From positions 14,291,037-14,355,036 of the forward strand of contig OZ316891.1 of NCBI GenBank assembly GCA_973895155.1: a stretch of DNA of 64,000 nt, written 5' to 3'. A model generated the notes under the pieces. That model was not told the DNA's origin and searched no databases. It worked only from the letters and a program-made list of their open reading frames with translations. This DNA is from Marsupella aquatica (taxonomy: Eukaryota; Plantae; Marchantiophyta). The translations under genes and the position numbers were made by a program. How positions within the stretch are numbered: position 1 is the first letter of the stretch; the number at the start of each line of letters is the position of its first letter. Below are positions 3,001 to 35,302 of this stretch, piece after piece.

Positions 3001-3013
3001 AAATGTACTAGTG
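1..3013 (+). mobile_element. CACTA (En/Spm) DNA transposon, right part (left end outside window)
   Basis: TnpD-type transposase ORF, many TATCGGA/TCCGATA subterminal repeats at ~2320-2990, terminus ...GTACTAGTG at 3013 (reverse complement CACTAGTAC...). Confidence 0.9.
6..2264 (+). CDS. CACTA TnpD/Tnp2 transposase (Transposase_21, DUF4218, DUF4216-like), 5' truncated by window; intron 187-300
   Basis: Motifs GPKQ..IDVYLQPLIDEL, WTMHDLPG, HLLDPMHIEGNV, LKTHDYH, FFDGQVHFLIHL..E...GPV..RWMY..ERYM..K..V.NRARVEGSI, YGKIEEI, FKCKWF; GT..AG intron joins HDLPG to FGYVSG in frame. Confidence 0.92.
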
Positions 3014-3310
3014 GTAATTGTATCTTCTTGTCTCACGCGCAATCGTATCTTACTTATGAAGTACCAATTACGAGCTAGAGTTTGGGCCTAGCCTTCTAGC
3101 TTCTATGTCGTAGACCCTATACCCTTTGACTAAGGTCACGCGACATGCCTTTAGATCCGTAATTGTATCTTCCTGTCTCACGCGCAATCGTATCTTACTT
3201 ATGAAGTACCAAGTACGAGCTAGAGTTTGGGCCTAGCCTTCTAGCTTCTACGTCGTAGACCCTGTTATCCCTACACCCTCTGACTAAGGTCACGCGACTA
3301 GTCGCGTGCA
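3014..3310 (+). repeat. Two tandem ~145-bp direct repeats
   Basis: GTAATTGTATCTTC(T/C)TGTCTCACGCGCAATCG...AAGGTCACGCGAC at 3014-3143 and 3159-3298. Confidence 0.9.
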
Positions 3311-3671
3311 GGGTAGTGCATTGACTACATTCTGCCTACTTATTGACGGTTGTGACAGGACAATGCAGTTCACGGACGTTTTACTGGCGCTTATTAGCAC
3401 TACTGTCCTCAGTAGTTACTGACTGTCCACTCATTTGTTCTGAGTGGATGTGAAATGATTGATCGTAATCGATTGTGGTCATTCTCATTCATTTGACATG
3501 ACTGACGGACCATGCATAGTCTATTGCCGGTATGTGTGGTACCTCTAGGGTCACGCGACCAGTCGCGTGCAGCGCAGTGCATTGACTACATTCCGCTTAT
3601 TGACCGACGTGACAGGACAGTGTAGTGAAATTGACGGACATGACAGGACTATACGCTTACAGTGATATTCT

Positions 3672-6600
3672 ATGATGTGCAGGATCATAATTATTATGGT
3701 GACATCGACAGTCTGGATCAGGGAAGGCGGACAAGTAATTATAGGCATACGTGAGAAACAGGTTGGAAAAGGTCGCGTGATAAGTCTTGATCCTGCCAGG
3801 GTTTGTCACAATGTTCCTCTTGGGGCGGACAGAGTTCTTCTTCTATTGGAGGAAGTTTTTGACGAGACCATTCTATGCGAAGATGGCAAACTTTTGAAGG
3901 ACATGATTGGGGGTTACCTTGTATGGGAAAGGAATCAGCTTTTTCGAGCTCCCATGGAATCGGAGGATGTGTTTGGCACTGTTGGTGATGATCAAGATCC
4001 AATCAATCAAAATTCTGATGGGAACAACCATAATGAGAGTCGGTCTGGTGTGGAAGTAGTTTTACCAAAGGCCTTGTGGATGGGCATGCCTGTAAAGGTG
4101 GTGGATGAGAACAAGTTGATATTTGCAGTGGCAACTATACATGTTCTAGATCCTGGATGTCACCCTTGGGAATACACATGTGGGAATTCTGATCAACGAT
4201 TTTGTCGAGGGAGCCACCATAGATCATCTGAAGCATAGAGATTGCTTAAAAGCTTGGTCGATGGACCAACTCATTGCCAAGGATGGCAACTTGTTGTCTT
4301 TCCACAACATCAGGCAAGCTGTGGGAGGGAACACATCTCCAACAAGTGGCAAGCGGTCCTACGTCCATAAAAGTAGGAAAAGAAAGAGTCCATCTTCCCA
4401 GACATCTAGAAGAGACACATCTTTGGCACGTCAAGATGTGTTGTTGATAAACACTAAGGACTGTTGTAGTGAACATTGTTGCCAATATTTGGACCGTAAC
4501 TTGGCTATGGCAATTAGGCAAAAGTGGTGGTCAAAATCTTTTGCGGAGCGCAAGGAGGAGGAAATCAAGGCTATTAAAAATACAATACACTTGGGTACTG
4601 AGAAAGGATTCTAGCAGTGGAGGGCAAAGTATTGTGCTTGGAGGCATGGAGAATCATTCATTCAAGAGGAAAGACTCAATTTTATGCCTTGAAGAAGACT
4701 GTGATGGCTGGAATGAACATAGGTACCCATGGTAATGCTGGAAAAAGGCGTATGTCCGAGAAAGTATCTCAAGCGTTCATGTCAATGAAAGAGATTATTG
4801 AGGAGGCAGCTGATCATCATCCAGCCAAGTTGAGAACCATGGCAGATAATGCAAGGATGGTTTTGAGGGAATTGCCAACAAATCTTACTTGGGAGAATAT
4901 TAGAAACAGGGTTAATGTTGTCAACCAGGAGGCTGGTCTTCCTCCAATTTCCCAACCCACCTTGAGTCATCTACATCAGATGTATTTCAGGGAGTTCTCA
5001 TGTCACAAAAAGGGCAACAACTTTTCAAAGTGTACAACTTGTAGTGAGTTGCTTCAACGGAAAGCAAACCTTACAGGAGCTAAGGAAGAGTTAGAGGGCC
5101 TAAGGCGTGACGAGGAGGAACATCACCAAGACCACACACAACAAAGAATGTGCTATCATACCTGGAGATATGAGTCCATCCATCGTCCAAAGGAAGTGTT
5201 ATGCCTTATTCATGATAAGATGGATCATTCAAGACAGCTCTCCCAAGAATGCCCTTCAATCCTAAGCATGTGGATGGTGCCCAAAAGTTCCCAATTACTG
5301 TCACTGGTATCCTTACTCATGGTCATGGTCCCAAGGCCATAGCCCAATATCATGTTGGAGTGTGGCCAGGTGATGTCAACATCACTATTGGGTCAATTGA
5401 TTCAATACTAAGGATGTTGGAAAACCCAAATCCAATGATCAAATCACTTGTGGAGGGGCCAGACTCGACAAGTCTTTTTAAAGACCTCCTTTTTGGGAGA
5501 GCAGATATCTTGGAGGCAAGTGTCCTTAGAGCATTTGAGGATGACATTGCCTACATCTCAAGCCTAGGTACTTTACTCACAATCCTTTAATTTTTTATTA
5601 TTTAATAATATAAGCTCACACACACTGACACTCTACTTTGTCTAGTTGTTGCTCCTCCTAGCCAAGGTTTCATTAATAGGGTTTAAACCCTAAACCCTAA
5701 ATTGGGGTTTAGGGTCTGACTAGGGTTTTGTTTAAAAGCATTCTGAGATTGTTACATTGTGATGCAGCACCTGAGGCACCAAAGTTCAGGCCCCTTCCAC
5801 GAGTATTGAAGCTACAACTGGATAATTGTGCCTCAGACAACAAGAACAGATATATGATGGCTTATTTGTCATTGTTGACGGCAAGGGAGGTGTTTGAAGA
5901 GGTTCATCTTGGTTTTATGGTGGTTGGGCATACTCATGAGGACGTTGACGGTATGTTCGGGCATTTTTCAGAGTCTATGATGCATAACTCCACATACTCA
6001 TTGCCTGAGTTAATGTCCTTGTTCATGAGAGCAAGGACACCCAATGCAGTCCCACATTTTCTACAGGAGGTCCCAGATTTCAAAAACTACTTAGCTCCAT
6101 TCATGTTGAAGGGCCCTGAGGCATTGGTGGGGCATTTAAAACCCAGGCTGTTTAGGTTCTATGTTCGTCATGATAGTATGCCATGCTTCCAATACAAAAT
6201 GAAGTCAACTGATCAGGGATGGTTACCCAAGGAAGGTATTGAAATGTGGTCATGGAAAGATGACAAAAGTCCTCACATCCCAATTGGGGTGCCCAAACGG
6301 CTACCAATGATGGAGTTGAAAATGCTTCCTGAAGTGCTGACAGGGTTGAAGAAGCATGTGTCATTCTTTGAGTTTATTCTCAAGCGAACAAAAGAGGAAG
6401 AACCAAAGCGACGTTGGACAACTCTCATCAATTATTGGAATGACATTGTAGATACTCTACAGGGTGAGCAGGTGCAATATGAACCTGAAGGTGCACACAA
6501 CTTGGAATACGGGTTTTGGCCTTTATCAATATGGAGAGAGCACGTTCCACCAGAATATCGAAATGTGGCATGTGAGTTGGAGGCAACAGTGGATTATGTG

Positions 6601-7029
6601 GGACCAGCAAAAGATAAACCTCCTGAGAGTTTTAACCCTAGGGTTGATGTTGTGAAGGGCTGTTATGTGTTGGTACGGCCGGACGACTCAGACCTGGATG
6701 TTTATCCCGTCCATATGGGGTTAGTTGTTACAGATGTGGTAGAAGGACCAGTGAATGAACAAAACCTTCTTACTCATGTATGTGGCATTGAGTGGTTTAG
6801 ACCATTTATGGCAAAGAAGCAACGTGGTCAATCAGACTGGCAGCCAAGAGAGCGGTGGGCAGATTCTTGGGATAAGAAATGGGAACGTGATCCATCTCCA
6901 ATATACAAGGAAGCTGAGACAATAGATGTTTCCTCTGCCTTGTGGTGTTTCAAAGCACGCAAAGGACCAGTGACAGGGCTGGTAGGATTCCAAAGAATGT
7001 TGCTGTCAAGGCAAGAGACTATCTCTTGA
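3672..7029 (+). pseudogene. Sola-type (DUF7869-like) DDE transposase gene, frameshifted, intron ~5568-5767
   Basis: CC..C and KCTTC Cys clusters, LIHDKMD (first D), LQLDNCASDNKN and FMVVGHTHEDVDGMFG motifs across ORFs 3672-4238, 4180-4614, 4617-5342, 5249-5590, 5728-7029. Confidence 0.7.
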
Positions 7030-7725: not shown

Positions 7726-8311
7726 ATTGAAACAATGAATGATAGTTTAATTAAGGATTTGTGCATGGATCAAGAGGTACTTGATGTCATTTAGTGATGC
7801 ATTGTTATAAAGATCTTGCAACAAAACATTTGAAGTTTTTGACTATCCCACCAAATGTTAAAGAGGTTGATCATTCATTAACTAATAATATTTAGATAAA
7901 ATTGGAATTAATCTAATACTTCAATATTCCTTAAATTGGGGTTTAGAGCATCAAAGAGATCAACGGCAGACCATTTTGGTCATCCATAAATGGTAAACGA
8001 GACCCCCTAAAGGCAAAATTTCCCCTATCCCCCAAAAATTCAAATGTGTTTGCACAACCCAAACCAAGGATGCAATGACACGTGGATGAATGAGTTATTG
8101 ACGTGTGGCAGCCCTATATGCTTTACCCTTACATAAAACTACTCGAACCCTATTTTTTAGATTACCTTGGTTCATTATAACATGGAACCCAATAAAACGA
8201 AGGGTTGTTACATTATAAGCGATTATAACTATTATTCAAAAAAGGGATTTAAAAACCCCTTGAGTTGTTCGCACGGGGGGTCCCATATTAGTTAAGCTAA
8301 GGGCCCAGGGG

Positions 8312-11238
8312 ATGTGCGTTGAGGCCTGCCTTGCTCTAATGTTCTACATGTATCCATCTGCGAAAGTTGACGTAAAGTCTTTGGCCCACATGTCGCGACT
8401 AGCTGTTCATATGGGATTTCACAATCATCCCAGTCGACGGGTCTTTTCGAGGGAGGCTGAAAAGGTTGCAAGGTCTCATTTGGAGAAGGGATTCACTGCA
8501 AACCCCATGGCATCCCCAACAGGGATAAAAAACTTTGCGACTGAGACACTGACAAATATATTTTGCGAGGCCTCTATTGAAGAAATCTCTCTTGAAGAAG
8601 AGAAGGAAATTTGGGAGTCCTTGATGGTCGTGGCATCTCCTCAGAAGTTTGCATCCGTGTTAAGGAGTGTCCATCAAGATCAGAAGGGGAAAGGGGAACT
8701 GGAATTTCTTGTGAGGATGCAAAAGTGTATCCGACTGCCTTTTCTTCATAGGTTCTTGCTCCCTGGTCAAGGCTGCCGGGACGAGAGTGCTCATATCTTT
8801 AAAATGACCGTAAAAGGTGATGGGAGTGGTCTGGACCTACTCCGAAGAATAAAACCTGGTGGGTTGTTAGAGGGTTCATGGATAAGTTTTGACGTGATGC
8901 ATCAAAGCACGGCAGATTGGCTTACTTTCAGTTCCCATGTATATGATCATCATTACCGGGCACTTTGCACCATATTCACTTGTGAGCTAAAGGCCGAAGA
9001 TGCAAAATCTCTGGAGAGAGCCTGGCGTTTGATGCTAGAGGTTGCCGATGAAAATGGTTTACAGGATGTTACAATTTGGGGATTCATGGCGGACAATGCT
9101 CAGGCTGGTTGGAATGTTGTTCGAAACGTGTTCTTTGACGGTGTACCCAACCCAGAGCGAGAAAGATCAGATGCCTTTCATTTTTTCCAATCTTTTCATC
9201 GTCATTCTCGAGAAGGTGTGAAAGATGGAAAGCATGGAGAGCACAAGGAGATGTGGGATCATCTTCGGAATGCGCCAACTTTCTTGAAAGCATATCAAAT
9301 CTTGAGGGAAATCGATGACTGGTGGAGGTCTGGCAATTGTCACTCAGGCAAACTTCAGATGCTGCAAGGGTGGCTGTCTTGGTGGGCTGTCCGATGGAGA
9401 CAATGGGGGAACTTCATAAGACTAGTGAGTTATACTCTGCTCTAGGATGCATGTTCCCATTAATAGCGCTCGGCGCTAGTGAAACATGTGTGAGACAGAA
9501 GAGTTCCTTATCCGCAAGAGTAGCCCGAGCGCTAATAATCCGTTTGGCCTATGAGTGATATAAGGACTTCCTTTATTTTGTGTTCAACGGTACTTTACAT
9601 GGAAATATCATCATCAGTTTATTAGCGTCTAGTGCTACTGTTATTTCCATTGTGTTGCCACTTTTGAGTGCAATTTCTTACATATACTAAACCCTTGCGC
9701 GCAATGTTTCAGAGCAAGAGTGCCGAAGAAGCTGGGATGATTCCAAATTGTACTGGTTTGGAATCTAGGCATGCTAGAATGAAAGCATGGCAACATAAAA
9801 AAAGGTTGGTCTGTTTGAAGGATGCAAAACGGACCAAAATAGAGCGGTTGCTCAAATTGCTGCTTATACTGCATACAAAAGGGGATTGAGCAGAGGAACT
9901 GGCCCAACTATTTTTGAGCTTGCCTTCAGATCGGCAGACCTGGCGGGGTCACCGCGTCTCTTTGAGGAAGCCACCAATCTCCTCCTGTCGAACGCTGCTG
10001 AGTTTGATTTGGAAAGAAGCGTTCCATTGAATGGTGATGTTGTAACTCGATCGGTGAAACGAAAAGGACATGCAACTGGGAACGTCTCGGCAAAAGACTC
10101 GCACAGGCATGATACCATCCTTGTTACTTCACCAAATACAAAAGGTTTGAAAAGGAAAAACCTGCATTCCACTGATTTTGAGAAAATGCCTTCTACACCT
10201 TCAGCCGGTGGAATTGATGTGGTCCATAATTTGTCAAAAAGCGATGCTTCTAAGGAAGTTGTGGTCATTGACACACCTTCGCGTCAAGCAATGAGATCCT
10301 CTGTCCCACCTGTGACCCCTGCAAGACCTGTCAAGACTGCATATTGTCATTCGGTTTCCCCAATGGAAAGTGAAGTACCTCCTTGTGCCTGGCAGTTGCG
10401 TCGGACCTCAAAACGGGGTGCGGGTCCAGTGTGTAACGGAACCCTTGGACAGGGAGGGAGTCGTGATGAATGTCAAAATCGAGTAAAGAAGGTAGGCCTT
10501 CCGAATCCAGATGGTGTTGTTGCGATTTCCGTGAGAGGATGCAGAATGTTCAGGGGGCAACCTTATAACGATCAGATATGGTTTTGCCCCAACAACCACT
10601 GTCACCAAAGCACAACAAGGAGAGGAGTCTCAAACATTCCCAATGTTCCTTCACATCTCCCAATTGCCAGAGGGACCAATCTTTCTGGAGCAGAGATTCA
10701 ATTTTTGAAAGAACAAGGACTTATTCTCTCCGAAGGCCATGGAGATGAAATCGAAGCACCGTTGCCTTCTGTGTTATGGATTGATGTCAATCTTTTCCCG
10801 GAGAGGATCAACCTAACTGACCCATCTGTGAGGTGTGCTTCAAGGAACGGGAAGAAATGCTTGCAAAGAGTGCATCTTACCCAAACACATTTGAAGAGAA
10901 TTGAAGCCTCTGAAAAAGAAGTGATGAGCGTCATTGGAGAGAGAGAGATCACGAGTGGAAATGCGTCGGGGAAACAGTTTTGTATCCGAACCCATGAACA
11001 TGAGCGATCAGTCGCCTCTTATTGGGTTCAGATATGTTGTTTCCCATGTTGCTCCTGCGAGGATTTCTACCGTCGGCATACTTATCGGAAGCCTTACATG
11101 CCTTGCAAACATGTGTATTGGGTGTTCAAGAATGTGTTCAAACTGGATGTGCACGATTCGACATTATGTAGCCAGCCAATTCTAACGTTGGGAGAAGTCC
11201 GTTACATACTTGATAGGCAGTTGGGAATGAGAATGTAG
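8312..11238 (+). pseudogene. MULE-like transposase with C-terminal SWIM zinc finger, 5' truncated; intron ~9425-9712; frameshift near 9886
   Basis: HMGFHNHP, SFDVMH, WGFMADNAQAGWN...AFHFFQS (DDE-like core), Trp-rich WLSWW..RW.QWG, SWIM-type CSCEDF...PCKHVYW. Confidence 0.65.
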
Positions 11239-11544: not shown

Positions 11545-11682
11545 ATACTCGTACAAGAAAACATAAACTCATACAAGGAAACATAAACTCGTACGAGTAA
11601 ATAGATATGCTCATACAAGGAACTTGTTTACTCATACGAGACAAAATTTTGCTTGTACGAGGCAAAATTGGCTCGTATGAGA
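11545..11682. repeat. Short subterminal repeats (CTC(G/A)TAC(A/G)AG), probable right end of the MULE-like element
   Basis: At least 5 direct copies plus inverted copies CTTGTACGAG and CTCGTATGAG. Confidence 0.6.
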
Positions 11683-12777
11683 ATATCTATTTACTATTTG
11701 CTAGCACGGTGGTTATACCCAGCACCATGGAGTGGTAGGGCTAGAACTCCTGATGCTAGATGAATGTACATCTGAAAAAGGATGCAAGTGACTAGAAGCC
11801 AAGTGAGAGCATTGAGATCCATTACCCTACCAAGTAAAGCATTCTTGGCCAGCCTGGTGATTTGGGTGTGGCCTGTAGTACCGGATTGGAAGCCCATAGC
11901 CCGTTCTCTCTCCTCACGACTAGGTTCATCCCATGTACTGGTAGAATGTCGATAAACCAGGCCAGGACCATCACCCTGAAAAGCATGGGCACCAGGAAAA
12001 GACACAAATGTAGGCCAATCAGCACGGGGCTCTCCAATGGTATTGGCTGGATACCAAGGGGCTGGCTCCTATCGTGTAACTGGTTGGCAAGAACTGGCAG
12101 GATCCAAAATCTGGTCCACTGTGAGGTTAGTGTCCCTGGGTGTGTGGTGAAGAGCTAACTCCAGCAAGGAAGGTGGTGCAAGGTTAGTCCAAAAGTTACG
12201 AAGACAATGTGCATAAGAACCACAATGCACTGCATCAATGAGAAGGGGTGGTCCCAAGTAGTGTTAGACCACACTGAAATCCTCTTTGACCTGTGGACGT
12301 TGGTCAAACTGAGATGGAGTATTCTCAATGATGTAACCAATAGCAGGGTAGTGGGCCTGAGCCCAGGTGAGAACCTGAACCAATGCTGTGAAAAGGCCAG
12401 AACAAGAATCATGCAATCCAGCACCGTGACCAACAACTGAAAATCCTTGGCATTCCCAACCAGCTATGATCAAATCAAGGGAGCCAAGAAGGGTTAAGTG
12501 CCGGTGCTGGACAAGCTGGATATCTAGAGGGAAGAAAGAAAAGGCAAACTTCCATGCACTAAATGGAAATTCCTGGGGAAATTGCTCTGAAAATTCCAGC
12601 AGACGGGATTCAGCCACTTGCCTTGCACGTTGTCGTGGGGATTCCTTTTAGAAAGCAAGAATCCATATTATGTTATTTGAGTTTATGTGAAGAGAGTTTT
12701 ACTTAAAAGCTTCATAGTAGTACTATTAGAGCATATATGTTACATCTATATGTAGTATGTACATTTTACAATGGTAC

Positions 12778-12972
12778 ATAGTAGTTCCACCATTTACGCA
12801 TAGTAGTTTTACAAACTAGATGCATAGTAATTCCACCAACTACGTATAGTAGTTGCACCAATTACGCATAGTAGTTTCACCAACTACGCATAGTAGTTGC
12901 ACCAATTACGTATAGTAGTTCCACCAATTACGCGTAATAATTCCACCAACTACGCACGGTAGTTCCACCAAC
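12778..12972 (+). repeat. ~22-bp tandem repeats (TAGTAGTTCCACCAACTACGCA), about 9 copies, in the solo LTR
   Basis: Directly visible degenerate tandem array upstream of the TATA box (U3-like position). Confidence 0.85.
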
Positions 12973-13290
12973 CATGAATAGTACTAGCACACTTATAGGT
13001 GCTTGATGGTTGCCACTTGGCTTCCATCCAAGGGTCAAGGCATCGATCCATGCCCTCTTGGAAAACACAAAGGGGCACTATAAATAAAGTGAAGAGGAGC
13101 ACACTCTCCTCATTCGCATTTATTTGATCTATCGTGTCGGACTCGCAATACTGTAAGGAACTCTTCCCCTCTTGTGCACATGTCTTGTTTATTATTTACC
13201 TCCATGCTTGGGTACTAACTTGATTGTTAGCCTTAAAACTATTTTATGTTTTATGTTTATTAGTCTTGAGATCAATTTAGTGTGCTTGTA

Positions 13291-13497
13291 ATGAATAATA
13301 TGATAAATTGAGTACCTAGAGTTTATCCCCCACCTGCTGTGCCATTTCTCAATCCTTTCTTAATTAGAATTCATTGTCTTAGCAAGCATACCATGAGAAT
13401 GCATCTTCTTTATCATTTTGGGTTTGAGTTAATGGAAACAATTATGAATAGCGATGCACCATTTGTATACCCGATTGTTGTTTATGGAAATGAATAG
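13291..13497 (+). pseudogene. LTR-encoded micro-ORF paralog 1 (68 codons, TGA at 13309)
   Basis: Manual translation MNNMIN*VPRVYPPPAVPFLNPFLIRIHCLSKHTMRMHLLYHFGFELMETIMNSDAPFVYPIVVYGNE aligns with the ORFs at 13525 and 35003. Confidence 0.6.
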
Positions 13498-13524
13498 AAT
13501 GTAACTATTTTTATTTTATATTAG

Positions 13525-13770
13525 ATGGATTTTAATAGACAATCCATAAATGTACCGGAGTTAGATTTGAATAGGCTTCCTAATAATGTGTCTGATTTTC
13601 CTTCATCTATTGACATTAGAGTGGTATGCCGTAAGAAGGTTGATTGTAGAGATGTTTTAGTTAGAAAGTATGGAGATGAAAGATACAATGTTATGCTTAG
13701 GATGCCAGAGCCTGTGATTATATCATCTATGGTAAATCTTAAGATCATAGTCTTTGTTTTCTATAATTGA
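13525..13770 (+). CDS. LTR-encoded micro-ORF paralog 2 (81 aa), unknown function
   Basis: DLNRLP...IRVVCRKK...RKYGDERY...PEP aligns with the 35003-35194 product. Confidence 0.6.
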   Translation: MDFNRQSINVPELDLNRLPNNVSDFPSSIDIRVVCRKKVDCRDVLVRKYGDERYNVMLRMPEPVIISSMVNLKIIVFVFYN

Positions 13771-14729
13771 CTTATCTAATTGTAGGATTCGTTGGAAATT
13801 GCAATCTATGACTTGACTTGGGAAGTAAGTTATGTGAAAAGAGGATAGGCCGATTCGAGGCTTAGTGTGAGGAAGCCGCTCATCGTAGAGTGAGACAAAG
13901 GCTGTGAGAGATATTTTAGAGGATAACGGTGAGAGAAATTGATCGACAAAGGGGATCGCAAGGGTAATGTGAGGTGAGAAAAAACGTATTTTGGAAAGGT
14001 TTCTTCCAAGATAGGAAAAACAAGAGCTCGGTGCTTCCCAAGAACTAAAGATTCCCCCGACAACGTGGATCAATATCCACGTAGATGTACTGCTTCACCA
14101 CCATGCCAAACTGTAGGAGAGCTTCCAGGCCTATAGAAATGCCACCAAAAAGTTCAAGCAATATAAGGCCATCTAGAGGAGGAGTCCATGTAACTGGTGC
14201 GCTCAAGATTGGGGCTATTGGTTGTCCATTGTGCTGCCCAAGGTCTTCAAACTTGCGCAATGCAGCCACCAAAGGTCCATGGGCTGCTTGGAGCCGTTGT
14301 ACCACCTCTGGTTGATGATCCACGTTGCTGGAAAATGCTGCTATATGTGCAGCAGCATGTGCAACAGCCACCTCATCGTCATCCTCCTCAATCCAATCCT
14401 GCAATGGATGGTTGACATAGGTAGTTGTGTGCACTTCTTTCAACACACAGTGGTGAGTCATAGGTGTATGGGCACCATGCAAATCAAGTGGAATGTAGCC
14501 CAAGTGTGAGCCATCAATATGCCAATCAACTCTGTAGTATGCATGCTCATGCCAGTTGTCAATGGTAAAACCTGGTGGGAACAAAACCTCTTGGCCAATG
14601 AGCACATCATACGTAGTGGCATTGGTAACCAAACATCTGACAGGGAAATGCAGTTCCTGATCTGTACCTCCATTAAAAGTGAGAGTGAGTAAAGTAGAAC
14701 TCTCACCTAGCACATCCTCCACAGTGCCA

Positions 14730-16465
14730 CTAGCAGTCCAAATGTGCCACGTACCTGGATTGCTGTAAATTATCAGTCATGACTCCCATCTTCTTGGCAA
14801 ACTGAATGCCCAAGATCACTGGTTGAGCGCCTGTGTCTAGCATGACCACCTGAGGAGTGTGACCCTCCAACTTGACCACTAAATTTCTGTTGTCAACAAT
14901 GGCAATGGTGGTGGAAACTGAAGTCCTGTCACTAGGCACCACTCTCGACAAATGATGAGGTACCTTGTGAAGGGAGTTAGTGTCCACGGTCTTTCCACTC
15001 AACAACATAGCCAGGAAAGATGGAGCAGCATGACCAGAATCAAGTGTAGCTTTGGTCACACAATCAACAGCAATCGGTACTGGGGCAGCCAAACCAGTGG
15101 AAACATGTAATGGAGAAAAAGAAGGTCCAGTATGTACATGAGATTGGACCTCCAAACCTGGTGTCACAGGGGCTGATGAAGAATGCAGTGAACCCTCTAG
15201 CGCTCTGATGACAGCTCTAGCATCCAATTGTAAATCATGGCAACTGATTAGTGGAGTTGTAAGAGTCTGTTGTGCCATACCAGAGGTGAAATGCTCAAGC
15301 AGCTCAGGAGAAACAACTCCCTGTGAAGTGTCAGCAGCACCTGGTGGTGGAATGGATGTAGCTGCAGCTCCCTGCCCCCTCGCCAACAAGGTGCGCTCTT
15401 CAGCAAGTGTGAGTGGCTAAAAAGATTGGGGCATGACAGCCGGAGCTCCCTTGGCTCTAGTCATAGGACTGGCAGCAAGACCATCAACCTTTACAATGCG
15501 GCATGTGGGAGCAGTACGGGAGGCAGCACTGGCCTGCTGGTAAGCAAAATAGGATGGGCAAAATGAATCTGAAAATTCTACTGTAAGGCCATGCTGTGTA
15601 GTAGAGGACAGCACACACTCACCCATATGAGCATCAAATGGCAAGCCCGAGTGGGGTAGAGGTGTTGAACTATCAGTGGTGCCTGGGCCAAGGATGGGTT
15701 GCACGTGACCAGCAGGTAGAGAAGGACCAGCAACGGTAGGTGACTTGCCTTTGATGTTGGCAAGTTGGGCACGTAAGGACTCAAACTCATGAGTCAGAGA
15801 CTGGAGTTGAGTTGCTTGTGCGTTGCGAGCCTCCTTCTGACCTGGTTGCTTCTGTTGCTGCTTAGGTGGTACATGCTTAGGCGGTACATGCTTAGGTGGT
15901 ACATGCTTAGGCGGTACATCATCTTCAATGTTTCATCTTGCTACCTCACAAAGGTGCCCAACTGCATGATTTTGTCAACACTCTTGATTGGGAATTCCAA
16001 TTCAAGAACCTGGAAAAACTCAACCACTGGATCAACAAAGGTAGGGGAATCAATGATGGGAGAAATGCCTGATGTAGCCTCTGCCGGGGCATGTGCCAAC
16101 ACTGTGGGACTAACTGGCGCAGTGGTAGGAACTAGAGTAGGAGGGGAAGTGGCCAGAGCAGCAGCATGGGCTGCAATGGCATTCTGTAATGCTAGTTATG
16201 AGGCAATTGCACTGGCATAGGCAGGGTTAGGCAATTGCGTGACAACAAGCAGCCGTTGAGAGTGCTGCTCATACACATCCAAAGCCTCATGGTGCACATA
16301 CCTGGCTAGCTGCTTAAATGCAAATACATTTGTGAAATTGTTGCCATACTTCAACTCCAATTTGTAAACAATAGTGTAGAAAGTGGATTTGAACTTACGC
16401 AAAGAAACAGTGCATGGCCGCCCGCTGAAGCGCTCAATGCGGCCAGATGAGTGGCTAGCATCCAT
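14730..16465 (-). pseudogene. Degenerate Gag plus retroviral-type aspartic protease of the DNMT retroelement
   Basis: ATG at 16465 (MDASHSSGRIERFSGRP), stops/deletion and 15-bp repeats at ~15859-15918, LDTGA protease motif near 14840, frameshift near 14750. Confidence 0.7.
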
Positions 16466-16748
16466 GCTGTATGTCGGTGAAGCTGGAACAACCACTGATG
16501 CAGAAAGAGTATAGGGCAAAGAAGCGATAGCAGGCTTTGGGGTAGAGGTGAAGCGACCGCCAAATGTAGCAGAAGGATGGTGTGGTGTGGGTGTTGTTGT
16601 TGTTTGTTGACGTCGTCAAAATTGCCAAGACTCCAATGAAATTGGCACCAACGGTCGTGGATCACTCCGCAAGTGGCGGAGTGGTACCTGCGTGTCGGTG
16701 GCGATGAACTGCTACAGCTTGGCTCCTCTGCTGACATGCTGCATGCTA

Positions 16749-16761
16749 ACCCGGGGTGCCA
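16749..16761 (-). other. Putative primer-binding site of the DNMT retroelement
   Basis: Minus strand ...TTTTGTACA tt TGGCACCCCGGGT; cognate tRNA not identified. Confidence 0.45.
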
Positions 16762-17566
16762 AATGTACAAAACGTGTGAACACACATAAAAACCATTACA
16801 AAGAAAAACCGTCAGAGAAAATGATCCTTAAAAGCGCAAATTCAGCTCCCTTTGCATTTGCTTATTATATGCCGAATTGACCGTCCGATGTGTAGACACC
16901 GGACCTGCAGCGGTATGTAGACGTCGGCGGAAAGGACGGCCCCTAAAATCTATACACATCGGGTCCCATTGTGGACCCGGAAAGTGCAACCGTTCGGAAT
17001 GGAAAGCAAGGGAGGCGCATCGATAGGGAAAAGAAATACAAGAAAAATGGGCCCGCCTCTAAGTGTATAGGCAAGCGACCCTATACACAACAATAAAAAT
17101 GGTGCGTGGCCCTATGCTGTCGAGCAAGGCGAAAGAAAAGAATCCAGCCCGAAAGACAAAGAAAGGGCGAGGCAAGGCAGGAGCGAACAGAAAGAAATGA
17201 GCCCCTCTTAATGGCTCTCGAACCCTCCGTAGGGCTTTGTGCCCCCCTTTATGAACTCCTGAAGAGAAGGGAGTGAACTCCCCCTCCCCTAGTCCCCTCC
17301 TTCAATGAAATTGGGCCTCGGGCCCTAGCAAGAGGATTCCTGAGAAGGGAGTCATATGTACTCCCCTTCCCCAATCTTTGAATGCAACATAGGGCTGTGT
17401 GCCCTCTCTTGACACTCGTTCCCCCTCCTTCTTGCTTTTGCTTGTGCTTGGCTGCCCCTCCCCCTGCTTTAATGCTGCCTTGGGCCTCGTGCCCTGCTTG
17501 CACTTCCCCTCGATCCCCTCCTCTAATGCCCTGTAAATTGGGCCTTGTGCTTGGCAGGACTCCCGA

Positions 17567-20058
17567 TGTCGTCGGGGAAAATATTGGACAAATGAAGTGG
17601 AAAGTGCCGGAACAGGGTGACTTGTTTTTAGTTCAGTTTGGAAGGCATCTCTGGTTGTGGTGCGGAAGAAACAATCTGAGTTTAAGTTGAAGGATAATAA
17701 GTCAAAAGAGGAATAAATAAGTGGGAGTTGGAGCTTAGGTTAAAGAAAATTGAGACTTTTATTGTGGAAGTGACATGTGGCGGCCTGGGATAGAAGGATT
17801 CGAATTCATAAGGGTCATGAGGATGAAACGGTGACGCGCACGATGAAGGTTCAGGGGAGGAAAAGGAAAACGGCCGAGTGTATGCGGAGTGTAGGATGGT
17901 TATTGTTGAAAGAGTTGGGCTGTCAAGCGAGTGTGGCGAAGCAGGCAGGATTTTGAGATTGGGGAAGGAAATCTGGGGAGGCATCGTGTATGGTTGGAGT
18001 GGAAGAAAGAAAGGAGATGATGAGCTTGGGATAGGTGAGGTTCAGCCAAAAGAGAATGTTGTTGTGGTGTGGAGCTTCCGGGTAGAGGACACGCAGAGCC
18101 GATTGTGGATGCCTGGTTGTTGTTGGTTGCTGTAGATCTCGTTTTTCTCGGATGAACAGGGCGAGGTGGCTTCAGGTGAAGAAGTGGAAATCGATAGACT
18201 GAGGTGAAGTGTGTGTGTGTGTATGCGATCTGCTTCGGAGCCTTCAAGTGAATAAGGGACTTCAACGGAAAAGAGGAAATGGAAGGTGGGCGATGGTGAG
18301 TATTCGATTGAATCGGAAAAAGAGAAAAAGCAAAAGAAGAGAGGCTATGGTGGATGAGGAAATGCAATTCGGGTGATCAAAAACAAAAACAAAAACAAAA
18401 CTTATATTAATCGTGAAGGAAGGGACGTAAGGGAGAATGAAGAGATTATGAGGAAAGAATGTGAGAAGGGCAAGCGCTGCTGAACGTTAAAGCTACTGAA
18501 AGGTCTCTCGAATGATCAAGAAGAAGCAGTCGAATGTTGATAGCTTTTTGAGAAAGATTATTCGTGAGATTTTGGAAGCAAAGGAGTAAGGGGCGAATGG
18601 TCGATCGTTGATATTGTGAAGGAAAGTTAAGGAGTGCTTTGAAGCTTGAGTAATGGAGGAGGTCGAATTCGGAAGCAGGAACCTTGGGAAAGCATTTGAG
18701 CGAGAGGAGAAGCCGAACGTTTGTGCTGACTCAAAGCAGAGAAGCGGAGGAGAATTAATCGAAGACCGGAGCCTGTCGAGATCATTCGCTCGATATTTGA
18801 GATTGAGGGAGTGGATGAAGAATACAGGGAATGTTTTCTTAGTACGCGGTCGACTGGGGAAGGGTGAAGAGTGGTGATTCACCACTGGAGTGAGGTTCGG
18901 GACTTGTGTTTGGGGCGGCGGAGGATTGAACAGAAGGATGACAGCGGGATTTTTCATTTAGCGCCACGGAGTGGCTGTGGTGACGAAAGGGAAAATTAGT
19001 AAGCGCAGCAAAGGAGACAGGGATCTGGGATGGTGAATGATGAACATTGAGCATTGGAGAAGCTTGACTTTCGTTGTTATCATTTGAGGACTTTTCTTGA
19101 GAGAACAGGTCAGATTGAGATTCAGGAAGAGAAACGGCAGAGATTCTTCATGGTGGAAAAACAAAATAAAACCTGTGTGCTGAAAGTCTGAGCTATGATG
19201 AAGGTAAAGAGGACTGGAGATCAAAGCGAAGAGGACATGTGATAAAGACCCGAGAATGAAGTCTAAGAACGTTGCTGCTGAACGATGATGTGGGAGGTTT
19301 AATTTTGAGGATGACAAGGAGCGATAAGCGATGGAATTGTGGAAGATGATCGGGAGGAAAGAAATTCGAAGGCAAGGAAATAAATTTGCGCTAAAGGCTG
19401 AGTTCGGGAGAAAAAGGGAGACAGGTTGAGGGAAAAGGAACACAACTCACGGAAATTAAAGTAAAGGGACAATCCGCTGCCATGGGGTATGAGGATAGCG
19501 GCCGTAAGTTCTTTTTGCTATGGGACTGGAAACTTGAAGAGAGAAGGAAGGAGAGCCAAGAAGAAGAGTGTAAGAGGAGCGACGATGTGAAGGAAGCTCG
19601 GCGGAGACTAAAATTGTGTCCAACATGTTTGGGGGAACCATCGATGAGCTTGAGGTCGAGACCTGATCTGATGATTGAGCTGAGTTTAGTGGAGAAACCT
19701 GAGTTAGGAGATGAGCCACCGAAAAACACTTTTGTGAACCCAAACCAAACTTCATATTTTTGAAAATGATTGAAATAAAAAGTTGAGTTTGGATTATTTT
19801 ATGTGATCGAAATGATGAAATGCTCTTGTGGTAAAAATGTTTAATTGTTATGGAAATGTGAGTGATGCATCGAATTTAGATGTAAGTAGAAATTTAGTGT
19901 TTTAAGTTAAAATAGCTTAGTGTAATTTCGTATTTAAAATGGAAACTGATTAGGATTAAGAAAGATTAAACCAACTTAAGAAAATACTATGTAAAATCCA
20001 AGTCCCTAAAAGTATTAAAAAGTCTACTTTTATACCGCTTTAAACTGGTCCCCGGACA
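17567..20058. mobile_element. 2.5-kb TG..CA insertion (probable solo LTR)
   Basis: Termini TGTCGTCGGGGA...TCCCCGGACA, near-TSD CCGA/CCAA; removal rejoins GACTCCC..GGGGAGTC and the GGGCCTCGTGCCC-rich flanks. Confidence 0.6.
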
Positions 20059-21243
20059 CCAAGGGGAGTCGACGTGAATTCCCCCTCCCTCTTTAATTCT
20101 TTGTAGGGCCTCGTGCCCTCGATTCTTGCTCCCTCTCCCTTGTTTTAATTGCAACGGCAGGAAGATGACAACGGCATCGGAAAATGGCGAGGCAAAAGAG
20201 TGAGGCGAGATGAAGCAAAAATGGCCGAGAAGGGGAGAAGTGCTGAGGCGAGGCCATGGCACAATGGAAATGGGGAGGAAAACGGGCACGCAGCCCTATG
20301 CAGGTCGCGCTGTAGTCAAATGAGCAAGGCCGGCTCACCGGCAGCCGTGGCAGGAGAATACGAGAAACGGCCCCAAAATCAAAGAAATGGCGATGGCATA
20401 GCGGCAGCAGGTTGCTGCAGTCGGTAGCAATAGTATGAAGGAGGCGGTCGGCCGCGGCAGTTGTAAGGAGGTCGCGCGACGGCCGGGAACAAAAATCCGG
20501 GAACAAAAGCATGGGTTTGGGCCCAAACACATAACACCCATAACTTTTAACTCGCCATTCCAATGCTGCTCAAAGAAATTGCACCAGCTTTGACGGAAAT
20601 TGTATGTACCGGTATGAGCAATCGAGAAGCACAATGTTTGCAATCTTCTTCCCCTCACTGCCAACTCGGGAGTTCTTCTTGAATAAAAGGCGTAAGAGAA
20701 ACAAGTGTACTGAAATCGAATTGAAAACCAGCCGGATGCCAAGATCGGCCGGGAGCATCTAACAAATCATTGTGTGAATCCCGTGTACGGAACCGACGAG
20801 CACTGTCTGAGCTCTGTCAACAGCGATTCAAGAAGAACTGAAAACCAACAAAAAAAAACATGCCCTAAGCAAGCAAAGTCTTGGCATCACACTAACAAGC
20901 GCGTTTGCTTCAAGAATGCCTAGAATTTGCTATAAGAAAATGTTGCTAACTTAAGTAGTACACTAGCCTTAACTACATACCTAGCGGGCATGCGAGGGAC
21001 ATGCTGATGTGCACAAGAGGCACTGTCCCTCGGCATGACAGGGACTCATGTTTGACATGAATGGATAGGATTGAGAGGAGGGTGGCATGCTAGGTGTGGT
21101 CTAGATCACGTTGGGGAGAGGTACTACAAGTGGAGGTGACATCTAGGGGAGAAAAGATAAAATTGTCTTCAGTTGTTTCTAGCTAACAATGATTTCTAAT
21201 CAGACTATCTCGTCAATGAGATTGCTGTTTGAGATGGAGATCA

Positions 21244-21701: not shown

Positions 21702-22573
21702 GATGGAGATCACACCATAAGATGGATGTAAGATTGCTACATCCAAAACACAAATCTGGACCTGTTCAGATTGGGATTCAGATCCAACCCATTATAATCA
21801 ATCAGTTTGAAGGGATGCAAGTTTTGCAAATTTCAGAAAAATACTAATCCATTTAAAACAAAGATGCAAGATGTAGGTCTAGAGCAAGTTATGCCCGGAT
21901 GGACTGCCAGATTGTCCAGGCATGGCAACTACTGTCTTCCCCCGAACACAGCACCCGGGCGCTATATTCAAATAGTGGGCCAGGGGGTGCTGTATTCGAA
22001 TATAGCGCCCTAGGCGTTGTGTTCAATTTTTTTGACATGGTTTTGGATTTGTCACAAGTGGCGCTGTGTTCGAAAATGGCATTGTGTTTGAAAATGACGT
22101 TGTGTTTGAGTTTAGGCCATTGTGTACAAGGTTAGGAGATTAATGTATTGTGTAAGCACAAACTGAAGTCTTAAATAAAGTGGTTAGGAATGTGTAGGTA
22201 ATTCAAAGGCTGGAATTACACAAGGGAAGCTAAGAGAACAGACCTTGCAAATCATAAGTACCATAAATTTATGACAAACAACAATATTTAAAAATATTTC
22301 CAAAACATCACTATTGTCCACTTAGTGCATGTCATACCATAAGACAATTGTTTGGTTGCCTCAAACAATAACAAGATGTCAAACCAACAATAAAATCAAA
22401 GTAACCATGCAAGGAGACTTGGACAAGTTCACCTAAGTGTGTACTTATGAGAGTTACATAATACGACTCTCATTGAAATAAACCAGTCCTGACATAGATC
22501 TCATAACTCTCATAGTGACACAAGGAACACATGCCCAAGAAAAGTGTCACCTAGCAAGTGTTTTTTGTAAACA

Positions 22574-24535
22574 CTACATCAACCCTTCATTGAGCTGCAT
22601 ACAAAAGTAATTGCCACTTCTTGCCAAATGAACTCGCTTCACAGGTTCCTCCACCTTGTAAACAAAGTTTTGGATGATCTTGCTATCCAGATTGACTTCT
22701 GTGAGCTCAATCTCCCATTCCTCCAATTTTGAAGCTGCAAACACTGCCAAGGTACCTGCCACCATTTCTCCACTCACCATATCAGCTGCAGCGTCATCAT
22801 CAAAAATGTCATCAAGATCAGGACACATTGACATGTGCACCACCAACTTTATGACATACGTGTCAAGATATTCATCCATGTCACTTCCGTGAATACCCTT
22901 GCAACAAAGAAGGCATCTAAATAGAGAGTAATCCTCCTCAAGACAAAACCATGTAGGTGGCTCGATGAGGAGAGTAGGGCGCAATTCTTCACTCTCTTCA
23001 AGTACATGCCCGTATTGTTCACTCCATTCAGCCAAGTCCAAGTCTGCCGCATACAATGCTCTAAGTGGCGGATGTAGGTTTTCCACTACAAATTGTGAGC
23101 TTGGCACCAAGCCACAAACCTGAGAGTACAAGATACATCCATTTAGGATTCATCAAAAAATATATGCCAAAAACCACATAAAATTAAACAAACTTTCATC
23201 TTACCCTAAACGCATTTGCCATGTCCTCCTCACAATTGCCAATCCATGAAAGTGCCCATTCTGCCACCACCTTTGCAGCTGGACCTTTAGGGTTTCCGGC
23301 AGTTGTTTGCATCTGTGGATTACTCAAGGCATCCGCAATGTAAGTGTCATATTGCGTTGCATAATCTGCCTGATAGCTTCGGTTCACTGCAACATCAAGA
23401 GGCTGCAAAAGGGAGGTCAAGTTCGCTGGCACAATATGCACAAACACATTGTAGTCCTCCAGTATCTTTGCATGTGCCTTGGGCCACTTCAGGTGGGGAC
23501 CATATGTGTCAATGATGTACAAAGTGGGCTCCCAGTAGAATTGGGTCTCACCTCGCTTCATCACTGTTTCATTAAAGTGTTCCCAGCATAACCATTCATT
23601 CCACATACCTGCATAGTTACAAATTTGGTTACATTTTGTACAATTAGAAAAAAGTTTATGTACATTCATAAGAAATTAAGAAATAAAATCTCTCCACAAA
23701 AATAAATAATGAGAGAATTGAATTTACCAGTTTGGTTAACTTCAACAAACACACCAAGCGGGACTTCAGGTTTGTTCTTCCGCTTTGAAATTAGAATGTG
23801 TGGCTTCAAATGTTTGCCTTCCCCCTGTTATGGAAAAGGCTATAGTGAACCGTTTATGGCTGGTGCCACCTTTTCTCATCATCACGGTTTGGCTGCCTCG
23901 GGTAGTAATGGTTGACCTTGGCTCTGTCTCATAGTACCGTGGCACCTGGTCCATATTGATAATGTTTTTGGGCTTGATTTTTTAGTGTCAATCAATTCTT
24001 GGCACTCCTGAATGAATGCCCAACACAAATCAGCAGCGTTGTCTAGTAGCTTGCGATCAGTTGTATGTCTCCTTGACACCAGGTCATGTCGCTTTTTGAA
24101 CCTGTCCAACCAACCTGTTGACGCTTTAAATGTCATCAATTCCTCACTTTCTGAGTTGGCTGCCATCCTCTCAGCAATCTTCAAGCCCATCTTAGAGATG
24201 TACAAATCCTTCACCCTCAATCCCTTCTCATTTTGTGCCACGATCCAACTATGAAGCTCCTCCTCCATTTTGGGCATCAATGGCCTCCACCCACCTCCCC
24301 TTAACGTGCGCAATTTTCAGGTTGAGATCTTGTCATCCTTAAGAGAGGCTTGCAACTCTGCCTTTTTCTCATACCATCCTCTCAAAGCCGACCGGGGTAC
24401 TCCAAATTTTTTGGCAAGTGCCCCAAAGCCTTGCCCTTTGATGTTTGGGTCATACTCTCGAATGATGTCCAGCTTGAACTTAAGAGAGTAAGTCCGGCAC
24501 TTCTCGTGTGCTGTCCCACGGGGATGTCTTGCCAT
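22574..24535 (-). pseudogene. pogo transposase (N-terminal HTH, CENP-B HTH, DDE_1), frameshifted, with introns
   Basis: YSLKFKLDII, MEEELHSWI...FKASTGWLDRFKKRH, NMDQVP, YIIDTYGPH, IVPANLTSLLQPLDVAVN. Confidence 0.88.
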
Positions 24536-24994
24536 GGCTGTCAACAAACGGCAGGGGCGGCAATCTGGCACCACCTTTAACACTTCATGTAACAAATCAA
24601 TGGCATGAACGAGCATATGAAAACCTCGGTTCACAACAACTTTAAAACTTTTTGGAGGTACAAAAAATGTATCGCGCATGGAACGATCAATCCATCAGTT
24701 TGGACAACATAGGCTACATAATGTCGGAGTTTGTTCAGGGATTGACGAGAGAATTATTGACGAGAGGGATTGACGAGAGAGTCCATCTTTTCAGAGGGAG
24801 TGAAGGAGTGAGCCAAATGCCTTGCTCTCGAAGCTATCGTAGGAAGAGAGGCTCGAGCAGTAGAAGTGGGAGGTGAGTGTGGATGAAAATTCCGCAACCT
24901 TAAGGACCAGAGGCTGAAGGAGTTTGGAGTGCTCACGGGCCAGCCGAAGACCATCAAGAAGGCGCAGGCCGTGCTACTCCTCTGGATCGAGCTT

Positions 24995-25435
24995 GAGGAT
25001 TTTTAAAATGTGGCCTGAGCTCTTTGAGCATCAGGACCAAAATCTTAGGGCAGCTGCCAAGGGACTGACAATTGAGCTTTGCCGGTGGATTGGGAAGGAC
25101 ACGGATCAGTCCATCCTCTTCAAGAAGATGCGAGACACCACGAGGAAAGAGGTGGAGGCTGAGGTGGAGAGTGTGGCCGGATTTTTGAGGCCAACGAGAA
25201 AGATCAGAGCAGAGTTGGAGATTGATGACTATGAGCTGAAGAAATCCGTGGACATACTCGGGCCCCTGGGCAAGTCCATCTTTTGGGAGGGAGTGACTCA
25301 GGCAGTGCAAGCGGTGTGAAGGGTGTGGAGGCGGGAAGTAAAGGAAATCGTTCATTACAAGGTAGTATAGGGAATATGTTCCGATTTCCATGCAAAACCT
25401 CAACGATGGCACTGCGGAGGTCAGAGACGCAGCAA
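24995..25435 (+). pseudogene. MOR1: Captured fragments of MOR1/XMAP215 (TOG-domain microtubule polymerase) inside the pogo element
   Basis: PELFEHQDQNLRAAAKGLTIELCRWIGKD..SILFKKMRDT..KEVE, EIDDYEL...VDILGPLGKS.FWEGV and LNDGTAEVRDAA match plant MOR1 as I recall it. Confidence 0.8.
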
Positions 25436-26103
25436 TTGGTGTCATGCTACAAATGCCAAAGTCATGGAATGATTCAACTGGAGAAATCCCTGGAGAAGTT
25501 CTGAGGGAGCAGCAGGTGTTGGTGGCGCTCCTCTTGCTTTCAAGGCTGCTTTGCTTCTCTCGCTTCATATGGGATTCTCTCACTCCAAAACATTCCTCAT
25601 TTTTTGGCATACTATGTCTACTGTGAGTCCAATCGAAAGCATGCATAAGGAATGAGCTGTCCTGGTCATTTCTTTCCCATTTGCAAAAATTGAACTTCAG
25701 TTGTCACTGACCTGGTTTACAACTTCACATGTTCATGTCCCGAGCCAGGTAGGAAAGAGATGGACGTACAAGGTGAAGTTGTGCAAACATCAGGAATGTA
25801 TGCTCTGTTCCTGCAATTCCAGGACCTGCAAAAGTAATTCGCATTGCATTAGTTTCAATGTACAGTTCAAAATCCTGAACCACTTCAATTCAATGAAGAG
25901 TTGAATTCTTCACTCACCCCTCCCGTTCCAGCTCTTTGGCCCTTCTCCTATCCATAGCCGAAGACTCCCAGGTTCAGACATGTTGTCTTAAGGCACCCTG
26001 ATGATTTTGTGATGGAGCAAGAACGGTGGTGTGTTTTGTCTCTTTTGTTCCTGTTTTGATTTGTACCGGAAATCGATCACAACGTCAGTTCTGAGTTCTG
26101 AAA

Positions 26104-34994: not shown

Positions 34995-35002
34995 CTTGTA
35001 CC

Positions 35003-35194: not shown

Positions 35195-35302
35195 TTTCGG
35201 GTAATGATCGTAGTGTTTTATTAGCATGTCGTAGCGCATTGTTCTTCCGACAGACAGAAGCCCGGGCTTTCCCGACATCGCCCACAAACTTCACGACATA
35301 TT

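What the first reader, a model, noticed from the sequence alone, without database searches (positions are those of the whole stretch)
11694..16764. LTR retroelement encoding its own C5 DNA methyltransferase directly after the protease
Seen: gag, then LDTGA protease, then a complete ordered C5-MTase motif set (I FGGI, IV AGWECQ, VI IEN, VIII R.FWTNL, IX-X ERERAMGF/LLG). Removing the solo LTR (TSD ACGT) restores VDIDPRARQVAES with no frameshift in the MTase, and the protease C-terminal half reads in frame into it. Established: DNMT-carrying retrotransposons were reported in dinoflagellates and the charophyte Klebsormidium (de Mendoza et al. 2018). Inference: this is such an element in a land-plant genome, and the protease-released MTase could methylate the element's cDNA or target DNA. 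The catalytic motif is WEC rather than the usual PC.
Basis: partly seen in the sequence, partly recalled or inferred. Interest (0 to 1): 0.85.

Follow-up and report, generated by a model that had tools for sequence, protein, structure and literature searches.

The report
Dead Gypsy retrotransposon carrying DNMT3 methylase
This is a broken, truncated copy of a multi-copy Gypsy jumping gene that carries a DNMT3-like DNA methylase domain between its protease and reverse transcriptase; the design was described in one alga in 2018, the same family turns up in liverwort and moss genomes, and intact copies likely use the enzyme to methylate their own new DNA copy.

Summary
The minus strand holds gag, a protease and a C5-methyltransferase in unpermuted motif order, split by a 1,432-bp TG..CA insertion with a 4-bp duplication. 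The copy is dead: a protease frameshift, two stops in the methylase, a gag deletion, and no RT, RNase H, integrase or 3' end. Contigs from four runs join across the insertion. Relatives read gag-PR-DNMT-RT-RH-INT (27 of 80 loci), the order of Klebsormidium KnitGypsy-Dnmt3 (de Mendoza 2018). Named relatives occur in Calypogeia (74% identical), Sphagnum, Marchantia and Closterium; chlorophyte relatives carry the domain after RNase H. A relative's domain folds like DNMT3A/B (Z 29.9) and evolves under constraint like RT. WEC is a common family variant (83 of 210), not decay. The 5' end likely lies at 21040, not 16764, beside a self-priming complement. Relatives have split repeats A..B-A-B and 4-bp duplications. 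Verdict: a new member of a known kind, extended to land plants; enzyme activity is untested. This scan noted the family before, in a moss and elsewhere in this genome.

The parts
20685..21040 (-). Likely 5' terminal repeat (A1) of the element, beginning with the same TGTCATG motif as the relatives' left ends
   Evidence: Sequence against relatives' termini. Summed contig depth in run X1 is about 100,000 at 20725-21046, as over the coding region, and 224 in the next bin. That this repeat belongs to the same copy as the gag 4 kb away is inferred.
20826..20839 (-). Predicted self-primer segment (5' end of the RNA), one arm of a 14-nt perfect complement
   Evidence: longest inverted pair in the 541-bp region is 14 nt; the largest in 300 shuffles was 12. 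It aligns weakly (E 0.11) to the equivalent site in the relatives' A repeat.
20671..20684 (-). Predicted primer-binding site directly after A1, complementary to 20826-20839; no tRNA-type site seen
   Evidence: same arrangement in relatives.
16746..20670 (-). Long, lower-copy 5' leader with internal repeats; may hold captured or nested DNA
   Evidence: Depth mostly 150-3,800 in X1; joints skipping about 2.5 kb between 17509-17566 and 20083-20088 in single contigs.
15911..16465 (-). gag N-terminal part, with stops at 16198 and 15943; about 190 residues (zinc knuckles) missing after it
   Evidence: tblastn 61-63% identity to P0137 and P0004; alignment jumps from P0137 residue 185 to 377; stops.
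14751..15833 (-). gag C-terminal spacer and protease N-half with LDTG (14840-14829); stop at 15419
   Evidence: PF13975 E 1.5e-4, below the curated cut-off; 43-44% identity to relatives.
14063..14755 (-). Protease C-half, linker and DNMT motifs I-II in one open frame; frameshift against the N-half near 14750
   Evidence: ORF 14045-14776; 67-68% identity to P0137, P0132 and P0004.
12631..14062 (+). Nested 1,432-bp insertion, likely a solo LTR of another Gypsy family in the opposite orientation; TG..CA ends, 4-bp target duplication, internal 22-bp tandem array
   Evidence: repeated in the runs; in run X5 the loose ends behind 14062 begin like a tRNA primer site (resemblance judged from recall).
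11766..12630 (-). DNMT3-like C5-methyltransferase, motifs IV (GWECQ), VI (EN), VIII, IX and X; premature stops at 12266 and 12071
   Evidence: PF00145; 74% identity to Calypogeia fissa CAM6101866.1 and 40% to Klebsormidium KFL_009030040; 52 of 58 conserved columns kept.
11596..11765 (.). Truncation point (protein similarity ends at about 11765, other copies depart at 11720), followed by a 100-bp palindrome (11596-11695) of an unrelated repeat; RT, RH, INT and the 3' repeats are absent
   Evidence: (loose ends at 11720 in X2 and X3); no 3' terminus with a matching duplication found.

Best explanation
This is a dead, 3'-truncated copy of a multi-copy Ty3/gypsy family whose intact members encode a DNMT3-like methylase inside the polyprotein, between protease and reverse transcriptase; the enzyme is likely packaged with the RNA, likely freed by the protease, and likely methylates cytosines (probably CG) in the newly made cDNA before it integrates. 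Shown: architecture, multi-copy and multi-species linkage, conserved catalytic Cys/Glu-Asn/Arg columns, constraint on the domain, split repeats, 4-bp duplications, a self-priming complement. Predicted: a DNMT3 fold. Inferred: packaging, cleavage, activity, substrate, and the benefit (new copies arrive already marked like host DNA). The life cycle inferred from relatives is self-primed reverse transcription giving [B-A]-internal-[B-A], then end joining, then integrase cutting at the inner CA-NN-TG joint to leave A..B-A-B.
For: 27 of 80 metagenome loci read gag-PR-DNMT-RT-RH-INT (the best 80 of 565 confirmed stretches). P0391 from Klebsormidium has the same order. Cys, Glu and Asn of motifs IV and VI are invariant in 66 of 66 aligned rows; Cys is kept in 79 of 80 decaying loci. 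Median omega among loci is 0.36 for DNMT, 0.35 for RT, 0.48 for PR; window against loci gives pN 0.22 and pS 0.77. The model of L004's stop-free domain has pLDDT 96; best matches are DNMT3A/B/C, TM(query) 0.74 and Z 29.9, rmsd 2.4 A over 270 residues, against HhaI at Z 25.4. Sequence order of hits: DNMT3A 4e-9, DRM2 0.017, HhaI 0.007. De Mendoza 2018 showed CG activity for SymbioDIRS-Dnmt3 and proposed cDNA methylation from the position in Pol.
Against: No activity data exist here for this family; KnitGypsy-Dnmt3 gave no methylation in yeast (inconclusive). The motif IV proline is replaced by Glu in this sub-lineage, with unknown effect. No cleavage site was identified. Omega values use non-independent pairs of mostly decayed copies (only L004 is stop-free from motif I to X, 1 of 80). 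Gypsy elements without a DNMT transpose well (18 rows lacking it form their own starred clade). No host DNMT3 or DRM rows were available for the trees. A symmetric two-ended circle should also give A-B-A..B insertions, yet 0 of 29 left ends have B in front.
Confidence: 0.55

Rival explanations
1. The domain is kept as a DNA-binding or structural module with weak or no catalysis, for example helping the integrase pick or hold the internal CA-NN-TG joint.
For: No activity of KnitGypsy-Dnmt3 in yeast; Pro-to-Glu change in motif IV in 83 of 210 domains; in the relatives examined the DNMT occurs with split repeats; the domain sits at two different places in Pol.
Against: Cys, Glu, Asn invariant in 66 of 66 rows and motif VIII arginines in 64 of 66, a pattern that fits catalysis; human DNMT3B also failed in the same yeast assay.
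Confidence: 0.17
2. The enzyme acts at or after integration, methylating host DNA around the target site or the fresh insertion as part of the integration complex, together with the C-terminal PHD finger.
For: In chlorophyte-type relatives the DNMT lies between RNase H and integrase; many full polyproteins end in a PHD finger (PF00628).
Against: In the window's lineage it lies before RT, far from integrase; flank methylation was not measurable here.
Confidence: 0.18
3. The domain methylates the element's RNA rather than DNA.
For: It would be packaged with RNA; the idea was raised for LINE-borne DNMTs by de Mendoza 2018.
Against: Fold and sequence point to DNMT3, with no DNMT2 entry among the listed hits.
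Confidence: 0.05
4. A one-off capture of a host DNMT3/DRM gene, or a chance nesting of fragments in this genome.
For: The window copy is fragmentary and lies among other repeats.
Against: Colinear gag-PR-DNMT in Calypogeia, Marchantia, Closterium, Klebsormidium and the metagenome loci; no introns; unpermuted motif order excludes DRM; the window groups 100/100 with element-borne domains (no host rows in that tree).
Confidence: 0.01

Closest known systems
KnitGypsy-Dnmt3 of Klebsormidium nitens (de Mendoza et al. 2018, PMC5890265; seen: first part of the text, passages, sections 9-11, term search of 3 supplement files; Fig. 4c and the supplementary figures not visible)
   Same: DNMT3-like domain in the Pol ORF; order PR-DNMT-RT-RH-INT (P0391); Gypsy domains; split DIRS-like repeats (paper legend; relatives here); purifying selection.
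   Different: Host range includes liverworts and mosses; 40% identity; WEC instead of WPC; self-priming complement, 4-bp duplication and inner CA-NN-TG joint are not described in the parts of the paper I read; the window copy is dead.
SymbioDIRS-Dnmt3 and SymbioLINE-Dnmt of Symbiodinium (same paper)
   Same: Retrotransposon-borne C5-methyltransferase; the DIRS type is DNMT3-like and has A..B-A-B repeats.
   Different: Tyrosine recombinase or LINE instead of DDE integrase; activity was shown only for the DIRS type.
EpiLTRs of Euglena and Cymbomonas (bioRxiv 10.64898/2026.05.21.726589; passages seen, supplements closed)
   Same: Ty3/gypsy elements with a DNMT domain.
   Different: Their DNMT is sister to DNMT4 and comes with a DAM domain and chromodomain; the preprint keeps them apart from streptophyte Gypsy-DNMT3.
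Tf1/Sushi and plant Tcn1 self-priming Ty3/gypsy elements (Neumann 2019, PMC6317226; passages seen)
   Same: No tRNA primer site; a complement between the RNA 5' end and the site behind the 5' repeat.
   Different: Those are chromoviruses with ordinary LTRs; 'methyltransferase' and 'methylase' occur 0 times in that survey.

Membership tests
C5 cytosine methyltransferase (PF00145) | Profile match and motifs I, IV (Cys), VI (EN), VIII (RxR), IX, X | tested here: met
   24.3 bits against cut-off 22; 52 of 58 conserved columns kept, one motif VIII arginine changed in this copy.
C5 cytosine methyltransferase (PF00145) | Methyl transfer to cytosine in DNA | not testable with these tools
   The window copy is broken; no assay possible.
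DNMT3 family | Closest sequence and fold among solved enzymes is DNMT3 | tested here: met
   Tested on relative L004.
DNMT3 family | Placement in a tree with host DNMT3, DRM, DNMT1 and bacterial enzymes | not tested
   No host sequences were returned by the searches; the trees hold element-borne domains only.
DRM (domains rearranged) | Circularly permuted motif order VI-X then I-V | tested here: not met
   Order is I, IV, VI, VIII, IX, X; the defining order is recalled, non-rearrangement of Dnmt3 is stated.
Streptophyte Gypsy-DNMT3 (KnitGypsy-Dnmt3) | DNMT inside the Pol ORF, order PR-DNMT-RT-RH-INT | tested here: met
   PR-DNMT in the window; full order in 27 of 80 loci and in P0138, P0187; the same in P0391.
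Streptophyte Gypsy-DNMT3 (KnitGypsy-Dnmt3) | Gypsy RT, RNase H and DDE integrase in this copy | tested here: not met
   Lost by truncation in the window; present in close relatives.
Streptophyte Gypsy-DNMT3 (KnitGypsy-Dnmt3) | Split direct repeats A..B-A-B | tested here: inconclusive
   Met in relatives (7 loci with A..B-A-B; 18 of 36 loci with any B show B-A-B). The window keeps only a likely A1 at 20685-21040.
Streptophyte Gypsy-DNMT3 (KnitGypsy-Dnmt3) | DNMT groups with the Klebsormidium element | tested here: inconclusive
   Window, Klebsormidium, Closterium, Marchantia and unnamed DNMT-before-RT rows lie on one side of a 93/91 branch against the DNMT-after-RH rows; order within that side is unresolved and the tree is unrooted (36 of 64 rows).
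Streptophyte Gypsy-DNMT3 (KnitGypsy-Dnmt3) | Purifying selection on the DNMT | tested here: met
   Omega 0.36, like RT 0.35; window against loci pN 0.22, pS 0.77.
Canonical two-LTR tRNA-primed plant Ty3/gypsy | Two identical LTRs at the ends and a tRNA primer site | tested here: not met
   Relatives have A at the left end and B-A-B or B at the right; a self-complement rather than a tRNA site follows A1.

The most novel reading that the evidence does not exclude
One old green-plant Ty3 lineage, from chlorophytes to mosses and liverworts, combines its own DNMT3, self-priming and integration from a ring opened at an internal CA-NN-TG joint; the methylase marks the CpG-bearing side of one of the two joints and so tells the integrase which to open, which would explain why only the A..B-A-B form is seen.
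Probability: 0.12. Interest if true: 0.88.

Novelty: new member of a known kind. Interest (0 to 1): 0.47.

Why it matters
Gypsy-DNMT3 elements were described from one alga and their enzyme was not shown to be active. Their presence in Marchantia, Calypogeia and Sphagnum, including gene models in the tractable Marchantia polymorpha (Mp4g09160, Mp8g17980, Mp6g11220), makes the open question of why a transposon carries the enzyme class that silences it testable in a model land plant. It also warns that some annotated bryophyte 'DNA methyltransferase' genes are transposon parts. The split-repeat anatomy points to an unusual integration route.

Tried and rejected
No whole genome was held, so copy number and intact copies in this genome were not counted; summed contig depth is not a copy number. 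No RNA holder was listed. The representative search used a DNMT-RT-RH query, so about half of the 150 rows were multi-RT proteins without a DNMT. The window's TGTACA/TGGCACC at about 16765 as LTR end and primer site: rejected, since depth and the terminal motif point to 21040 and relative L037 has a similar TGTACA inside its leader. A search for a displaced 3' terminus with matching duplication gave 3 one-mismatch hits against 1.95 expected. CpG observed/expected is 0.23-0.32 in the coding parts against 0.33-0.64 in five other repeats of the window, but in 4 relatives the flanks are more depleted than the element; it does not tell host from element methylation. Phage methylases match only weakly (best 4e-9, 24%). 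The Atlas named only PF00145 clusters, two of the top three mostly viral. The PHD query did not hit the loci. The self-priming complement is 11-15 nt in only 7 of 26 left repeats; the other 19 give 5-9 nt, some through decay or a shifted end call. Trees used subsets: 64 rows after dropping 43 of 68 DNMT-after-RH rows, 36 of those 64, and 28 of 83 RT rows without a full DNMT, some of which are truncated carriers. Literature searches that found no report of this family in land plants; the library lacks most subscription papers, and unseen supplements of PMC5890265, PMC12344493 and the 2026 preprint may include land-plant rows.
Full report
1. Observation. The minus strand carries gag (16465-15911), a spacer and protease with LDTG (14840-14829), a linker, and a C5-methyltransferase in the order I, IV, VI, VIII, IX, X. 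A 1,432-bp insertion at 12631-14062 with TG..CA ends and the same four bases on both sides splits the methylase after motif I. The flanks align to consecutive residues of intact relatives, and contigs in all 4 runs laid join across it. The methylase piece passes the PF00145 cut-off. The copy is dead: a frameshift near 14750, stops at 16198, 15943, 15419, 12266 and 12071, about 190 gag residues missing, and nothing after about 11765; no RT, RNase H or integrase query hit the window. Loose ends at 11720 in two runs show that other copies go on with different sequence there.

2. Relatives. The methylase half, read with X at its stops, found 8 longer and 155 similar-length proteins. The nearest named one is Calypogeia fissa (CAM6101866.1, gag-PR-DNMT-RT, 74% identity); Sphagnum compactum and S. 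jensenii fragments are also named. A second search from P0138 added Marchantia polymorpha Mp4g09160, Mp8g17980, Mp6g11220, Sphagnum fallax, Klebsormidium nitens KFL_009030040, Monoraphidium and Scenedesmus; Closterium came. Two layouts exist: DNMT between protease and RT (window, Calypogeia, Closterium, Klebsormidium) and DNMT between RNase H and integrase (Scenedesmus, Monoraphidium and many unnamed rows). The Marchantia and S. fallax proteins form a second, WPC-type sub-lineage only 30-39% identical to the window, so land plants hold at least two branches. In the DNMT tree the window sits with Calypogeia and P0002 at 100/100, and the two layouts are separated by a 93/91 branch (36 rows, unrooted, no host enzymes, many rows of unknown taxon). 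In the RT tree the DNMT carriers lie apart from a starred clade of 18 RTs without DNMT.

3. The enzyme. Among 210 domains, motif IV reads WPC in 89, WEC in 83, another form in 12 and was not matched in 26 (redundant copies and the window included). WEC occurs in Closterium and Monoraphidium too, so it is a family variant. Cys, Glu and Asn are invariant in 66 of 66 aligned rows; the window keeps 52 of 58 conserved columns. Among 80 metagenome loci (best 80 of 565) median omega is 0.36 for the DNMT, 0.35 for RT, 0.40 for RH, 0.48 for PR; window against loci gives pN 0.22 and saturated pS 0.77 (pairs are not independent and most copies are decayed). The one locus that is stop-free from motif I to X (L004) folds at pLDDT 96 and matches DNMT3A/B/C best, as does its sequence. 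Activity is not shown.

4. Element anatomy. 27 of 80 loci read gag-PR-DNMT-RT-RH-INT. Seven show A..PPT-B-A-B, with A about 290-313 bp and B about 170-185 bp; 18 of the 36 loci with any B show B-A-B, 17 show a single B and one B-A. Ends are TG..CA with a 4-bp duplication, perfect in 8 of 14 elements with both ends, off by one base in 4, unresolved in 2. L009 and L023 share their flanks but differ in B-A-B against B, which fits later loss by recombination or an assembly collapse. B2 starts at the same base as B1, directly after the purine tract, and 18 B|A joints fit CA-NN-TG (the pattern asked for two bases). Behind A1 there is no tRNA site but a complement to the bases about 30 nt after a TATAA, 11-15 nt long in 7 of 26 copies. 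The window has the same left-end motif at 21040, where contig depth falls from about 100,000 to 224, and a 14-nt perfect complement not reached in 300 shuffles. Self-priming is known from Tf1/Sushi and Tcn1 (PMC6317226, passages).

5. How it likely works. Inferred: RNA from A1 to A2 is self-primed and copied to [B-A]-internal-[B-A]; the ends are joined; integrase opens the inner joint to give A..B-A-B. Integrase cleavage of 2-LTR joints is reported for foamy virus and HIV (PMC1180852, PMC1905944; search listing only). Against a plain symmetric ring, 0 of 29 left ends have B in front. The DNMT is made in the polyprotein, so it would be present where the cDNA is made, and most likely methylates it (0.55). 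Rivals are methylation at the target site (0.18), a binding role (0.17), RNA (0.05) and one-off capture (0.01).

6. Known and new. De Mendoza 2018 (PMC5890265; part 1 of the text, passages, sections 9-11 and a term search of 3 supplement files read) describes KnitGypsy-Dnmt3 with the DNMT in Pol, DIRS-like repeats, purifying selection and an inconclusive yeast assay. The window's family has that design. Later papers mention it only as a streptophyte case (PMC12344493 and bioRxiv 10.64898/2026.05.21.726589, passages). Eight searches found no report in land plants, within the limits of the library and of supplements I could not see. This scan's own notes, read after my analysis, report the same family in a moss and the split-repeat idea on other pieces of this genome, which they call a liverwort; they are unchecked and not independent support.

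7. Verdict. A real feature and a new member of a known kind, with a useful range extension to bryophytes and chlorophytes; this copy is non-functional. Interest 0.47.

Noticed in passing
P0348, P0350, P0361 (Marchantia Mp4g09160, Mp8g17980, Mp6g11220) and about 24 unnamed proteins: A WPC-type sub-lineage in which the ORF often ends soon after the DNMT, so RT may lie in another frame and the methylase may be made at gag levels; annotated as host genes.
   Followed up: partly
P0247, P0401, P0196 and about 100 other proteins: Chlorophyte-type relatives carry the same DNMT between RNase H and integrase, so the domain has moved within Pol; I found no description of this layout.
   Followed up: partly
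window 12631-14062: The nested insertion ends in the same seven-base terminal motif as the DNMT family and also makes a 4-bp duplication; it is depleted in CHG (o/e 0.34), unlike the host element (about 1.1).
   Followed up: partly
L009 and L023: Same insertion site with B-A-B in one contig and a single B in the other.
   Followed up: no
L036 9282-9967: A second, inverted B-A-B block 4 kb from the first element's end.
   Followed up: no
window 213-2264 (+): CACTA-type transposase ORF (Transposase_21, DUF4218, DUF4216).
   Followed up: no
window 5713-7029 (+): DUF7869 ORF, likely a transposon protein.
   Followed up: no
window 8264-11238 (+): Repeated element with two long ORFs, the second ending in a SWIM-like Cys/His motif (by eye); it lies next to the truncation point.
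   Followed up: no
window 21926-27496: Inverted arms (48 nt, 85%) around a pogo/Tc5-type transposase (HTH_Tnp_Tc5, DDE_1).
   Followed up: no
window 30522-37435: A second Gypsy-like gag-protease ORF with DUF4100 (35309-37435, +) beside long antisense coiled-coil ORFs without a Pfam hit.
   Followed up: no
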